Shown here: positions 46,801 to 50,134 of the stretch, one piece after another | Numbering within the stretch: position 1 is the stretch's first letter | Layout: the number at the start of each line of letters is the position of its first letter | Assembly: GCA_016744535.1 (NCBI GenBank) | Contig: JADGEE010000006.1 | Coordinates: forward strand, 78 to 64,077 | DNA: 64,000 bases | Direction: 5' to 3' | Source of the DNA: Campylobacteraceae bacterium | GTDB lineage: Bacteria > Campylobacterota > Campylobacteria > Campylobacterales > BB28 | The notes under the pieces: model-generated | What the model saw: the letters and a program-made list of their open reading frames with translations, nothing else | What the model was told of the DNA's origin: nothing | The model's database searches: none | Position numbers and translations under genes: made by a program

Positions 46801-48255
46801 TTAACTCCCTATAACATCAGATATTTCATCTATATTTTCACTACTAAATATCTCATCTATTGATATTTTTAAAATCATTCTCTCACCACTATTTAATATA
46901 ATGATATCTGAAAATGTTTTATTACTTTCATCTGTTTGTGTTACAAATTCAAGTGATATTTCACTCACTTCATTCACATCATCAACTAAAAAGCCAAGTC
47001 TCATTCCTTTTACACTAGAAACTAAAATTTTTGTATCTTCACTAATACTATCTTTGAAATTCAATCTCTCTTGAAGTGAAACTATTGGGATAACTTCTCC
47101 TCTTAAATTGATAATACCCTTTACAAATTTTGGTGCTTTGGGAATAGGAGTAATACCCTCGTATCTAATAATTTCATCTATATCTTCAATATCAATTGCA
47201 AACTCTTCATTACCCAAAGAGAAAATTGCAATTTCAATAAAATTTCCTGTTTCACTCTTTACAGCTTTATTATCTGTACTTTCATCTATTGATGAATTTT
47301 TTTCTGAAACTAACTCTTTAATATATTTATTACTAAGTATACTAATTAACTCTTCGCCTATTTTTACAACTCCACTAACTTTAACATCTCTAAATTTTTC
47401 AGGCAATTTTTCAATAGATTTATTAAATATATCTTTTATATCTATAATTTTATCAATTAATAAACCAATAGTAACACTTTTATCACTGATAATTAATACT
47501 CTATTTTTATCACTAAAAGTGACTCTCTTATTGAAATTTTTTCTTAAATCAATGACAACTAAAACTTCATCTCTAAGTGTTATCATACCAACTACATCTT
47601 CACTACTATTTGCAATTGTAGTAATATTATCTGTGTTTACTATGATTTCTCTAACACTATCTATCTCTATTGCAAATTTTTCATCATCCATTTCAAAAAG
47701 TAAATATTTTTCATAATCTTGATTTTCACTGATTGAAGCACCAGATATAGATTTTTTATTTGAAGAATTTTTCTCTTTTCTATTAAGCTCAGGCATTGTA
47801 ATATTTTCAAGTAATTTATCTATACTTAAAATTTGAATAATATCTTGATTACTTTGAATAATTCCAATAACAGAACTATTTTCTATACTCTGCTCATATT
47901 CTACTTTTTGATTATCCATATCTAAGTTTTGCACAACTTCTTCAACAATTAAAGCCACTGGTAAATTTTTATATTTTATTGTAAGTACTCTACTTTTAAA
48001 GCTTTGCATATCTACAAGAGTTTCACTATTATTGAAAACCAATCCTCTTATATCAAATGCAGGAATAATATGTCCCTCAATTGAACATAACCCCCTTAGT
48101 GCTTCTGGAGTAAAAGGAATTTTGGTAATTTCAGGAATTCTTAATATTTGAATTACACTATCACTATCAATAGAGTAATTGTTATTATCTATTTTAAAAA
48201 TTAGTGCTTTTTCGAATTTTTTCATAATCTGCCTATTAGCCTTGTTGAAGCTCAT
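46801..48255 (-). CDS. triple CheW-domain coupling protein
   Basis: 484 aa with three consecutive CheW-like units (YSIDSDSV..., [11 protein letters not shown]..., [11 protein letters not shown]...). Confidence 0.8.
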
Positions 48256-50134
48256 CAGCCATAACAGCTAACTCTTCGATACCCTCTGCCATATTTCCAA
48301 TTGTTTCAATAATTAATTCACTAGCTTTTCTAGATTCCATAGCATTTGTAGCTGATAGTTCTATTGCTTTTTGAATTTCGGCAATTCCGCTTAATGAGTG
48401 GTTCAGTCCTTCTATATTTTGGTCATTCATACTCTTTAAACCTTGGTATCTATCCAAAATATCTACAATTTGAGAACTAATTTTATCAACTTCATTAATT
48501 AAATAATCAATAGTATTTTGCTCTTTTGCTTGTCCTCCAAGTAAATTTTTCCAATCATTACTTACATTTTCAATTTCATTATTCATAAGTTCAATAATAT
48601 CATTGATTTTTTCTGTATTTGTTTCGCTATCTTGTGCTAGGCTTCTAATATCAGCACTTACAACTGCAAACCCTTTACCAAATTCTCCAGCTCTTGCAGC
48701 TTCAATACTACCACTAATTGCCAACATATTAAGCTGTATTATACTATTAGAAATATTTCTAACAGTCTTTTCTACATTTTTTGACTCTTTTTTAATTGAA
48801 TCAAGCTCTTTTTCTGCTGTTGCCCCCTCTGTAATAGAGTTTTCAAAATTATCTTTAATTGAAACCATTATATTCTTAACATTAGAGAAACTTGCATTTA
48901 ATATATCGAAGTTTTTTCTAACAATTGTGATTACTGAATCTATATCTTTTGAAACATCATTTGCTAATTCAACTTTCTCTTTATTTTTAATTGCATTCTC
49001 ATTTGTAGTTGTACTAAAACTCTCTATATCATTAAGAGATTTTGTAACCTCTTCCATACTTTTTTGTATCTCTTCTACACTTCCACTAAGTGCATCAGCA
49101 CTAACAGCTATCTCTTCAGCTGATTTAATAGTATCAGTTGAATATTTTAAATCTTCAGAAAGAGAAGAAAGCTCTTTTATATCATCTTCAGTTTGAGATA
49201 AAGAGTTCGCTTGCATCTCAATAGAATTTAAAGTCTTTTCAACTGCATTTGCAATTTGAACAGAAGATTCAGTTATACTCTCACTTCCTCTATTTATATC
49301 ATTTGATAATGATTGAAGTGTATTTGTAAAACCACTTGCATTTCTAGCAGCTTCAACAGAATATGAAGCAATTTTTGTTAATTCTTCTAGTGTCTCACTA
49401 AGTCCTCTTCCTCCAACTCCTGTTGTCTCTATTATTTCAGTAGTTGAAGTAATGCTAGTTATAATATCATCAATTCCACCCTGAATTTGATTAACTAAAT
49501 CTGCAATAAATTGAGCATTCTTTTCACTATTTCCAGCTAAGCTTCTAGTCTCATCTGCAACAACTGCAAAACCTTTACCGTGCTCTTTTGCTCGACTTGC
49601 TTCAATTGCTGCATTTAGTGCTAATAGATTTGTTTGATCTGCAATTTTTGCAATAAAACCAACAGCCTCACCAATATTTTGTGAACTTACTTTAAGCTCT
49701 TCACTCTTAGCTGATGAATCTTTTGCAATTTGAACAGAATTAACCATTCTCTCAACCGTTGAGTTGATCATACCAACTGAACCAGTAATTGCATCACCTG
49801 TATTTAAAGTACTCCCAATTGCACTCTCAATTGTACTTGACATTCTATTTATATTTTTAGAAATAAGATTTATACTTTTAAGTGCTTGCTCGCTTGCTCC
49901 TGAATTCTCTTCAGCAGCTGTAGCAATTTGGTCCATTGAACTTTTTAACTCTTCAATTGCACTCACACTCTCTTGAGCATTTTCTAAAAGAGTATTTGCA
50001 ATCAAGGAGATATTTTCACTCATCTGTTGCTGTTTTGCTAAAGTTCTAGCTTGTCTAGCATTGCCTGACTGCACAATACCCTTTGCTTGAACACTACTTA
50101 TTGATCCTGAGCCACTACTTCTTACAAGAGCCAT
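48236..50134 (-). CDS. soluble methyl-accepting chemotaxis protein with two signalling-tip domains
   Basis: 632 aa with no TM. Tip 1 [37 protein letters not shown] (nt 49535-49645). Tip 2 [36 protein letters not shown] (nt 48635-48739). Confidence 0.85.

What the first reader, a model, noticed from the sequence alone, without database searches (positions are those of the whole stretch)
48236..50134. Soluble chemoreceptor with two complete signalling tips in one chain (DosM-like double signalling domain)
The protein is 632 aa with no hydrophobic segment. It has two MCP hairpin-tip motifs ~300 aa apart:
- aa 164-200, near-consensus ([34 protein letters not shown])
- aa 466-500, divergent ([34 protein letters not shown])

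Normal MCPs have one tip. The characterised precedent I know is Vibrio cholerae DosM, which bridges the two baseplates of the cytoplasmic cluster-I array (Briegel et al., PNAS 2016). The operon context (triple CheW, no TM receptor, stand-alone PAS) fits a cytoplasmic sandwich array.
Basis: partly seen in the sequence, partly recalled or inferred. Interest (0 to 1): 0.65.

Follow-up and report, generated by a model that had tools for sequence, protein, structure and literature searches.

The report
Double-tipped soluble chemoreceptor (DosM ortholog)
This gene encodes a soluble chemotaxis receptor with two complete kinase-docking tips in one chain; it is real, but it is a plain ortholog of DosM, the already described hallmark of "F9" cytoplasmic chemosensory arrays, so it is ordinary.

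Summary
Window 48236..50134 (minus strand) is an intact 632-aa ORF with no hydrophobic segment, no Pro and no Cys. It carries two independently significant MCPsignal domains (110.8 and 74.9 bits; Pfam cut-off 34.6), and their hairpin tips lie exactly 300 residues apart.

The protein is 64% identical over its full length to Sulfurimonas gotlandica WP_008339912.1. A 2022 PLoS Genetics survey (PMC9321776) lists that protein by name as DosM. It gives the F9 gene order for Sulfurimonas and Sulfuricurvum as [DosM-W3-B-.-R-Y-.-Y-A-W1], which is the order found here. More than 100 colinear orthologs of 626-637 aa rule out a frameshift or gene fusion artefact. In distant phyla the family aligns almost without gaps over about 600 residues, with DosM-CheW3-CheB-CheR-CheA synteny.

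The most likely function, by analogy with Vibrio cholerae DosM, is a roughly 43-nm strut. Each tip would plug into one CheA/CheW baseplate of a two-layer cytoplasmic array.

One small addition was not mentioned in the 2022 survey. A stand-alone Aer-type (FAD) PAS gene sits 11 nt upstream of dosM (11-18 nt in the relatives) in all five Campylobacterales loci examined. It is a candidate redox input.

The parts
48236..50134 (-). dosM ortholog: 632-aa soluble chemoreceptor with two tandem MCP signalling hairpins
   Evidence: Intact ORF. Two MCPsignal domains, 110.8 and 74.9 bits. No TM segment. 64% identical to the published DosM WP_008339912.1. AlphaFold2 model has four helices, 23-182, 186-331, 335-481 and 486-631, mean pLDDT 82.5.
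49535..49657 (-). Tip 1 (aa 160-200), canonical kinase-control hairpin ...[37 protein letters not shown]
   Evidence: aa F160-A193 are invariant in 30 orthologs. [12 protein letters not shown] is invariant across the 34 diverse family members. The model's helix break at 183-185 is the hairpin turn. Best solved-structure match for this half is the T. maritima MCP cytoplasmic-domain structure 2ch7.
48635..48754 (-). Tip 2 (aa 461-500), divergent but conserved hairpin ...[36 protein letters not shown]
   Evidence: Nearly every residue from N463 to S493 is invariant in the orthologs. The (S/N/T)-G-(S/A) triplet replacing N-A-A is kept family-wide, with G475 invariant. Helix break at 482-485. PDB sequence matches are 3g67, 3g6b, 4jpb and 3ur1, all deposited as 'methyl-accepting chemotaxis protein'.
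49124..49150 (-). Junction between the two hairpins (aa 329-337, LKYSTDTIK)
   Evidence: L329, S332, T333 and D334 are invariant in the orthologs. The LKxSTD consensus holds across phyla. It is the only helix break in the model other than the two tips (332-334).
49895..49924 (-). Candidate methylation site (aa 71-80, [11 protein letters not shown]75/E76)
   Evidence: This is the only match to the Glu-Glx methylation consensus [ASTG][ASTG]xx[EQ][EQ]xx[ASTG][ASTG]. A71-G79 are invariant. cheB and cheR lie in the same operon. Inference, not shown.
50146..50577 (-). Stand-alone Aer-type PAS protein (143 aa), 11 nt upstream of dosM
   Evidence: Pfam PAS_3/PAS. E. coli Aer PAS domain structure 8dik at E 4.9e-31 over 120 residues, with the R-H-P-(D/E) stretch kept. 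Present at the same position in 5/5 Campylobacterales loci with differing flanks, at 75-81% identity.
46801..48255 (-). cheW3: one protein with three CheW domains. The ORF is 484 aa; the public gene call starts 10 codons later (474 aa, at 48225), 10 nt after the dosM stop
   Evidence: Pfam CheW 250.5 bits in 3 stretches. Gene call of 474 aa in L084. Junction sequence.
45739..46797 (-). cheB (receiver + methylesterase)
   Evidence: Pfam CheB_methylest 172 bits and Response_reg 86 bits.
45113..45730 (-). HEAT-repeat protein; by position, the '.' between B and R in the published F9 gene order
   Evidence: Pfam HEAT_2 50.6 bits. Conserved at this position in L001, L002, L085, L086 and in the Acidobacteriaceae locus L004.
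44281..45108 (-). cheR methyltransferase
   Evidence: Pfam CheR 173.8 bits.
43885..44259 (-). cheY-like receiver 1
   Evidence: Pfam Response_reg 75 bits.
43481..43885 (-). 134-aa protein of unknown family between the two cheY genes (the second '.' of the gene order)
   Evidence: No Pfam or NCBIfam hit, even at E<=10 for Pfam. Homologs sit at the same position in L001, L002 and L085, and none in L086.
43108..43470 (-). cheY-like receiver 2
   Evidence: Pfam Response_reg 87.7 bits.
40392..43097 (-). cheA histidine kinase (Hpt, dimerisation, HATPase, CheW-like P5)
   Evidence: Pfam Hpt, H-kinase_dim, HATPase_c and CheW. NCBIfam CheA models at E 1e-110.
39974..40408 (-). single-domain cheW (W1), last gene of the operon
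   Evidence: Pfam CheW 70.5 bits.
39927..39946 (-). terminator-like hairpin plus T-run directly after cheW
   Evidence: Consensus scan only. Weak evidence.

Best explanation
The gene is the DosM ortholog of a complete F9-class chemosensory operon in a low-GC (27%) member of the Sulfurimonas/Sulfuricurvum group of Campylobacterales.

Shown here: one chain holds two full-length MCP signalling hairpins. Each arm is about 146 residues, roughly 21 heptads. There is no membrane anchor and no sensor domain. The gene is followed by a triple-CheW gene, cheB, a HEAT protein, cheR, two cheY, cheA and cheW.

Inferred from the V. cholerae work, as summarised in reviews: two chains pair into a continuous four-helix rod. 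Helices 2 and 3 run straight through the conserved LKxSTD junction, which puts one kinase-control tip at each end. That gives about 2 x 146 x 0.148 nm = 43 nm tip to tip. Each tip joins trimers-of-dimers and docks into a CheA/CheW3/CheW baseplate. The protein therefore staples two opposed baseplates into a flat, membrane-free sandwich array and sets their spacing. The near-total absence of indels over ~600 residues across phyla fits such a ruler role.

Also inferred: CheR and CheB probably adapt it through the invariant AAEEN site (E75/E76). Because DosM has no sensor, the signal must come from other proteins. The best candidate here is the FAD-type PAS protein encoded immediately upstream, which would report redox or energy state. 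Other soluble receptors may also contribute, for example the MCP-CZB gene at 28413..29504.
For: - Domain architecture.
- Soluble, Pro-free coiled coil.
- Four-helix model with breaks only at the two tips and the junction, mean pLDDT 82.5.
- Full-length orthologs, both tips invariant.
- Identity of P0115 with WP_008339912.1, which is listed as DosM with the identical gene order [DosMW3B.RY.YAW1].
- F9 is defined by DosM plus CheW3.
- Extended rod with one signalling domain at each end, essential for array formation in V. cholerae.
- Baseplates about 35 nm apart in V. cholerae.
- About 100 colinear 50%-identity clusters of 615-670 aa.
- 614-column core with only 15 gapped columns at 22-64% identity.
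- Half 1 always matches half 1 best (33/33) and half 2 matches half 2 (32/33), so the duplication is ancient and position-specific.
- DosM-CheW3-CheB-CheR-CheA synteny in Acidobacteriota, Bradyrhizobium and Microvirga; the Clostridia locus (L007) shows DosM-CheW3-CheB within the stretch held.
- Aer-type PAS protein and its conserved adjacency to dosM.
Against: - No experiment or structure exists for this organism. The bridging geometry is transferred from V. cholerae, and I could read it only through reviews (Briegel 2016 is not held).
- Direct alignment to V. cholerae VC1403 was not possible, because the genome scan did not return it.
- The predicted rod of ~43 nm is longer than the ~35 nm baseplate spacing reported for V. 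cholerae. This is reconcilable only if the baseplate density is centred a few nm above each tip.
- The conserved helix break at the junction would also allow a fold-back topology.
- In V. cholerae DosM occupies only every other trimer, so a partner receptor is needed, and none is encoded in this operon.
- DosM has no HAMP domain, which is the known docking site of Aer/CetB-type PAS domains. The PAS-to-DosM link is therefore conjecture.
Confidence: 0.85

Rival explanations
1. Single-chain pseudo-dimer. The chain turns back at the conserved S-T-D junction, so the two hairpins pack side by side into an intramolecular four-helix bundle about 22 nm long. Both tips then lie at the same end, giving a covalently linked, asymmetric 'heterodimeric' receptor rather than a double-ended strut.
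For: The only non-tip helix break in the model is a 3-residue stretch at 332-334, inside an invariant LKxSTD motif. All four arms have equal length, 146-147 residues. The two tips are consistently different from each other across the family, as expected if they form one asymmetric tip.
Against: Cryo-ET and flexible fitting in V. cholerae place DosM as an extended rod spanning both baseplates. A 22-nm bundle cannot by itself explain a receptor that is essential for holding two layers 35 nm apart. Foldseek rmsd values of >100 A for near-full-length superpositions suggest a very elongated model.
Confidence: 0.08
2. Artefact: two adjacent ordinary soluble MCP genes fused by a sequencing or assembly frameshift, or a recent lineage-specific tandem duplication unrelated to DosM.
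For: None found. The halves do resemble each other (28% identity), as any two MCP signalling domains would.
Against: An identical 632-aa protein occurs on independent ENA contigs. More than 100 orthologs have the same length and are colinear. About 100 distant clusters share the same architecture. Each half is closer to the same half in every homolog than to its own sister half. There is no stop codon or start-like junction at the midpoint.
Confidence: 0.01
3. DosM here is a genuine signalling receptor of a bipartite redox sensor rather than mainly a scaffold. The upstream FAD-PAS protein binds the mid-rod node (N-terminal RTLAKQQQ, junction LKxSTD, C-terminal LADELQ) and modulates both tips, in the manner of CetB/CetA or split Aer.
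For: The PAS protein is Aer-type (8dik, E 4.9e-31). It sits 11-18 nt upstream of dosM in 5/5 Campylobacterales loci whose flanks differ. It is more conserved (75-81%) than DosM (64-67%). Three motifs conserved across phyla would meet at the rod centre. V. cholerae F9 clusters are induced at low oxygen. CetB/CetA and CetB2/CetA2 are precedents for two-protein FAD sensors.
Against: DosM has no HAMP domain, the proposed PAS contact in Aer and CetA. The three mid-rod motifs are conserved in phyla whose F9 loci lack the PAS gene in the 6 kb held upstream, so they did not evolve for it. The PAS protein could instead act on CheA, CheW3, the HEAT protein, or an unlinked receptor. This reading is compatible with the scaffold role rather than exclusive of it.
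Confidence: 0.3

Closest known systems
DosM (VC1403) of Vibrio cholerae chemotaxis cluster I / F9 system
   Same: Soluble receptor with two tandem signalling domains and no sensor domain. It is encoded directly upstream of a triple-CheW gene, followed by cheB, a small unassigned gene, cheR, cheY and cheA. Both proteins appear in the same published DosM list.
   Different: The V. cholerae operon is [DosMW3B.RYA.YM] and ends with an MCP gene. The window's operon is [PAS-DosMW3B.RY.YAW1]. It has a second cheY plus a 134-aa unknown gene before cheA, an extra single-domain cheW, no MCP gene, and a stand-alone PAS gene in front. Sequence identity to VC1403 was not measured.
DosM of Sulfurimonas gotlandica GD1 (WP_008339912.1) and Sulfuricurvum sp. 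17-40-25 (OZA02490.1), catalogued in PMC9321776
   Same: 64% identity (66% for a Sulfuricurvum MAG ortholog, P0065) over the full length, with length 632 vs 632 and 627 aa. Gene order is identical from the PAS gene to cheW.
   Different: The S. gotlandica and the Sulfuricurvum MAG loci examined here (L001, L002) continue with an 89-aa gene and a ParA/MipZ-type ATPase; L002 also has a CheW-CZB fusion. The window has bamA instead. These proteins are catalogued only, not experimentally studied.
CetA/CetB bipartite energy-taxis receptor of Campylobacter jejuni (and CetA2/CetB2 of Magnetospirillum)
   Same: A stand-alone Aer-like PAS protein is encoded next to, and co-oriented with, a chemoreceptor that has no sensor of its own. 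The R-H-x-E stretch corresponds to CetB Arg-50/His-51/Glu-53.
   Different: CetA is a membrane protein with a HAMP domain and a single signalling domain. DosM is soluble, HAMP-less and double-tipped.
Ordinary soluble or long-class MCP signalling domains (T. maritima 2ch7; 3g67)
   Same: Each half is a complete MCP hairpin. Half 1 matches 2ch7 and half 2 matches 3g67/3g6b. Foldseek aligns ~300 columns to 2ch7 with TM 0.54-0.62, normalised by the target.
   Different: Those proteins have one hairpin per chain. Here two are fused head-to-tail with a conserved junction.

Membership tests
DosM / F9-class double-signalling-domain chemoreceptor | Two MCP signalling domains in tandem in one polypeptide | tested here: met
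   MCPsignal 110.8 bits (aa 1-324) and 74.9 bits (aa 325-632), cut-off 34.6. The tips are 300 residues apart.
DosM / F9-class double-signalling-domain chemoreceptor | Cytoplasmic: no transmembrane segment and (in 98% of members) no sensor domain | tested here: met
   Maximum KD19 of 0.96. No Pfam domain passes its cut-off other than MCPsignal. The 98% figure comes from PMC9321776.
DosM / F9-class double-signalling-domain chemoreceptor | Encoded next to a concatenated triple-CheW gene (CheW3) | tested here: met
   The next gene has 3 CheW stretches, 250.5 bits, and starts 10 nt after the dosM stop.
DosM / F9-class double-signalling-domain chemoreceptor | Lies in an F9 gene cluster (DosM-W3-B-.-R-Y-A core order) | tested here: met
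   The window order DosM-W3-B-HEAT-R-Y-unk-Y-A-W1 equals the published Campylobacterota order [DosMW3B.RY.YAW1]. The core order recurs in distant phyla.
DosM / F9-class double-signalling-domain chemoreceptor | Orthology to a protein already catalogued as DosM | tested here: met
   64% identity at 100% coverage to P0115. P0115 is WP_008339912.1, which is listed as DosM in S6 Table.
DosM / F9-class double-signalling-domain chemoreceptor | Direct sequence relationship to the experimentally studied V. cholerae VC1403 | not tested
   The VC1403 sequence was not obtainable. The relationship rests on the published list, which contains both proteins.
DosM / F9-class double-signalling-domain chemoreceptor | 44H heptad class reported for F9 receptors | tested here: inconclusive
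   Model arms of 146-147 residues correspond to ~21 heptads per arm, i.e. ~42H. The best PDB matches include the long T. maritima MCP domain 2ch7, with ~300 of 309 residues aligned. The class-specific HMMs were not available.
DosM / F9-class double-signalling-domain chemoreceptor | Spans and stabilises two CheA/CheW baseplates of a cytoplasmic array | not testable with these tools
   This needs cryo-ET or genetics. It is known only for V. cholerae.
CetA/CetB-type bipartite energy-taxis receptor | Stand-alone Aer-like (FAD-type) PAS protein encoded beside the receptor gene | tested here: met
   E 4.9e-31 to the E. coli Aer PAS structure 8dik. Adjacent and co-oriented in 5/5 loci.
CetA/CetB-type bipartite energy-taxis receptor | Receptor partner has a membrane anchor and a HAMP domain that receives the PAS signal | tested here: not met
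   No TM segment and no HAMP hit. The definition comes from PMC2628428. The pair is therefore not a member, although it may work in a related way.

The most novel reading that the evidence does not exclude
In the Sulfurimonas/Sulfuricurvum branch, the F9 array has a dedicated, identifiable input. A stand-alone Aer-type FAD-PAS protein, co-transcribed with dosM, docks on the sensorless double-tipped receptor (or on its baseplate proteins) without a HAMP domain. This would make the cytoplasmic sandwich array a redox/energy sensor. It would give the functionally enigmatic F9 class its first concrete stimulus and a new, HAMP-independent mode of PAS-to-receptor coupling.
Probability: 0.3. Interest if true: 0.5.

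Novelty: already known. Interest (0 to 1): 0.2.

Why it matters
As it stands, the result mainly matters for annotation. Public sources give this protein no name, or just 'methyl-accepting chemotaxis protein'. It can be labelled DosM, and the 11-gene operon can be labelled an F9 cytoplasmic chemosensory system.

It adds one more genome to a class found in only about 2% of surveyed species. The physiological role of that class is still unknown, even in V. cholerae.

The only forward-looking element is the conserved Aer-type PAS gene in front of dosM in Campylobacterales. If that protein feeds the array, these cultivable sulfur oxidisers would be a tractable system for asking what F9 arrays sense.

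Tried and rejected
- The primary DosM paper (Briegel 2016, PMC5027440) is not in the held library. Its content was taken from reviews.
- A genome-contig scan with a family alignment was meant to fetch V. cholerae dosM. Those loci were still useful for synteny.
- The coordinates of the AlphaFold model are not exposed. Whether the model is extended or folded back could not be read, and the Foldseek PDB search did not settle it.
- The frameshift/fusion artefact and the recent-duplication idea are rejected.
- SMC/Rad50 and ATG17 hits on the protein are far below their cut-offs and reflect coiled-coil composition.
- The 134-aa gene between the cheY genes was tested for CheZ/CheX/CheC families. There is no Pfam hit even at E<=10, so the D-x3-Q resemblance to CheZ stays an unverified impression.
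- The promoter scan is uninformative in this 27% GC DNA: 60 sites found against 68 expected.
- Filing the PAS-DosM pair as a CetB/CetA family member is rejected, because the HAMP and TM features are absent.
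Full report
**Observation**

The coordinates 48236..50134 hold an intact ORF on the minus strand (ATG start, TAA stop, 632 aa). The window is very AT-rich (27% GC).

The protein has no proline and no cysteine. Its most hydrophobic 19-residue window scores 0.96 on the Kyte-Doolittle scale, so it has no membrane segment.

Their GKGFAVV cores sit at residues 186 and 486, exactly 300 residues apart.

Pfam's MCPsignal model scores 173 bits on the whole chain. When the halves are scanned separately, it scores 110.8 bits (aa 1-324) and 74.9 bits (aa 325-632). 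Both are well above the 34.6-bit gathering threshold. The halves align to each other at 28% identity (E 1e-14).

**Not an artefact**

The identical 632-aa protein is present on independent public contigs. 120 listed homologs at 64-91% identity are colinear, and nearly all are 614-637 aa long.

In a 30-ortholog alignment both tips are essentially invariant: F160-A193, and nearly every position from N463 to S493. Both tips are therefore under purifying selection.

An exhaustive search of 50%-identity cluster representatives found about one hundred further full-length, single-stretch matches of 615-670 aa, down to 24% identity.

In an alignment of 34 of these, at 22-64% identity, the 614 columns from residue 31 to the C-terminus contain only 15 columns with any gap. 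The window's half 1 scores better against half 1 than half 2 of every homolog (33/33). The reverse holds for half 2 in 32/33. The duplication is therefore ancient and the two halves have fixed, distinct identities. Tip 2 keeps (S/N/T)-G-(S/A) where tip 1 has N-A-A, and G475 is invariant.

**Context**

The gene is the second of eleven tightly packed minus-strand genes:
- PAS protein (143 aa)
- the double-tipped receptor
- a CheW protein with three CheW domains (250 bits)
- CheB
- a HEAT-repeat protein
- CheR
- CheY
- a 134-aa protein with no family hit
- CheY
- CheA (Hpt, dimerisation, ATPase, P5)
- a single-domain CheW

A terminator-like hairpin follows the last gene.

**What it is**

The literature settles the identification.
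- It also reports that 98% of DosM homologs have only the two signalling domains.
- Its S6 Table lists 72 species. Among them are Sulfurimonas gotlandica GD1 and Sulfuricurvum sp. 17-40-25, with the gene order [DosMW3B.RY.YAW1]. That is the window's order, gene for gene.
- The S. gotlandica DosM accession in that table, WP_008339912.1, is my hit P0115. It is 64% identical to the window protein over 100% of its length.
- I confirmed the shared operon directly in S. gotlandica, Sulfuricurvum and two other Campylobacterales MAGs.
- The core DosM-CheW3-CheB-(HEAT)-CheR-CheY-CheA synteny is present in Acidobacteriota. Bradyrhizobium and Microvirga loci show DosM-CheW3-CheB-CheR-CheA, and a Clostridia locus shows DosM-CheW3-CheB within the stretch held.

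What it took for a rare precedent is in fact the signature of a catalogued class.

**How it probably works**

An AlphaFold2 model (mean pLDDT 82.5) gives four long helices: 23-182, 186-331, 335-481 and 486-631. The only breaks are at the two tips and at residues 332-334, inside the invariant LKxSTD junction. Each arm is 146-147 residues, about 21 heptads. Each half superposes on about 300 of the 309 residues of the T. maritima receptor domain 2ch7.

[quoted passage not shown] That rod integrates into both CheA/CheW3 baseplates, is essential for array formation, and occupies every other trimer-of-dimers. The baseplates there are about 35 nm apart.

By analogy (inference), a homodimer here would form a ~43-nm four-helix rod that staples two baseplates together. 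Three motifs conserved across phyla would all meet at the rod's centre: N-terminal RTLAKQQQ, junction LKxSTD and C-terminal LADELQ. The almost indel-free core fits a spacer or ruler role.

The single match to the methylation consensus ([11 protein letters not shown]75/E76) is invariant and lies in arm 1. CheR and CheB are encoded alongside. Adaptation by methylation is therefore likely but not shown.

**Rival topology**

The conserved three-residue break at the junction would also permit a fold-back. That would give an intramolecular four-helix bundle with both tips at one end, a covalent asymmetric 'dimer'. I could not read the model's coordinates, and Foldseek did not decide the matter. The V. 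cholerae tomography argues against this topology, so I give it about 8%.

**One addition**

The 143-aa protein encoded 11 nt upstream of dosM is an Aer-type PAS domain. It matches the E. coli Aer PAS structure 8dik at E 4.9e-31 over 120 residues, and the FAD-binding PAS of NifL is the next distinct relative. It keeps the R-H-P-(D/E) stretch that the CetA/CetB paper links to FAD binding.

This gene is present at the same position in all five Campylobacterales loci examined, although the genes further upstream differ: argG, rpsO, a peptidase, cheV. It is more conserved (75-81%) than DosM itself. It was not found in the up to 6 kb held upstream of dosM in the distant F9 loci, apart from one weak (31%) PAS match about 2 kb upstream in the Rhodoferax locus. 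The 2022 survey does not mention any PAS protein.

Since DosM lacks a sensor, and V. cholerae F9 clusters form at low oxygen, this PAS protein is a reasonable candidate input, functionally reminiscent of CetB/CetA. It is not a member of that family, because DosM has neither a membrane anchor nor a HAMP domain. This is a hypothesis, and I put it at about 30%.

**Verdict**

The feature is real and correctly interpreted. It is a straightforward ortholog of a published, named protein family, in a published operon arrangement, in sister genera. Novelty: already known. Interest is low (0.2). A modest upside attaches to the unremarked PAS partner.

Noticed in passing
window 50146..50577 (-); L001 9554..9982, L002 9560..9988, L085 9576..9989, L086 9562..9984: A stand-alone Aer-type (FAD-class) PAS gene lies 11-18 nt upstream of dosM in all five Campylobacterales F9 loci examined. 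It is more conserved (75-81%) than DosM, and the 2022 F9 survey does not mention it. It is a possible redox input to the array.
   Followed up: partly
window 28413..29504 (-): A third MCP tip in the window belongs to a 363-aa soluble chemoreceptor with a C-terminal CZB zinc-binding domain and no TM segment. It lies ~19 kb from dosM. It is a candidate partner receptor for the cytoplasmic array. CZB domains also appear fused to CheW in the F9 loci of relatives (L002, L086).
   Followed up: partly
window 43481..43885 (-): A 134-aa protein between the two cheY genes has no family hit. It contains LQHQDIISQQL, a D-x3-Q spacing that (from memory) resembles the CheZ catalytic motif, and it ends in EEIEFF. 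It is conserved in L001, L002 and L085 but absent in L086. It could be a small CheY phosphatase.
   Followed up: partly
window 50062..50134 (-), aa 1-24 of DosM: The extreme N-terminus, MA(L/F)(V/I)(K/R/Q), is conserved across phyla. It sits on a variable-length, low-confidence (pLDDT<50) tether that precedes the conserved RTLAKQQQ helix start. This looks like a short linear docking motif, by analogy with the C-terminal pentapeptide that recruits CheR/CheB in Tar/Tsr.
   Followed up: no
L001 20203..21899; L002 20650..21884; L086 20974..21881: In relatives the F9 operon continues with an 89-aa gene and a ParA/MipZ-type ATPase, which might position or partition the cytoplasmic array. In the window these genes are missing and bamA (37624..39909, +) follows instead.
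   Followed up: no
window 45113..45730 (-): A HEAT-repeat protein lies between cheB and cheR. By position it corresponds to the unexplained '.' in the published F9 gene order. It is conserved at that position in the Campylobacterales loci and in an Acidobacteriaceae locus (L004 10744..11265). Its function in the array is unknown.
   Followed up: partly
window 54209..59203 (+): A 1664-aa ORF combines C-type lectin domains with weak, below-cut-off matches to bacterial TSP3 repeats and a beta-propeller. It is probably a large secreted or surface adhesin-like protein.
   Followed up: no
window 13698..16823 (+): A 1041-aa single-chain restriction-modification protein carries an N6 DNA methylase / Eco57I-type domain fused to a type I specificity (S) domain.
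   Followed up: no
window 29820..31928 (-), 61410..62243 (-), 62632..63336 (-), 25663..26169 (+): The window carries further signalling genes: a dCache-PAS histidine kinase next to the MCP-CZB gene, a GGDEF cyclase, an OmpR-type response regulator and a stand-alone GAF protein.
   Followed up: no
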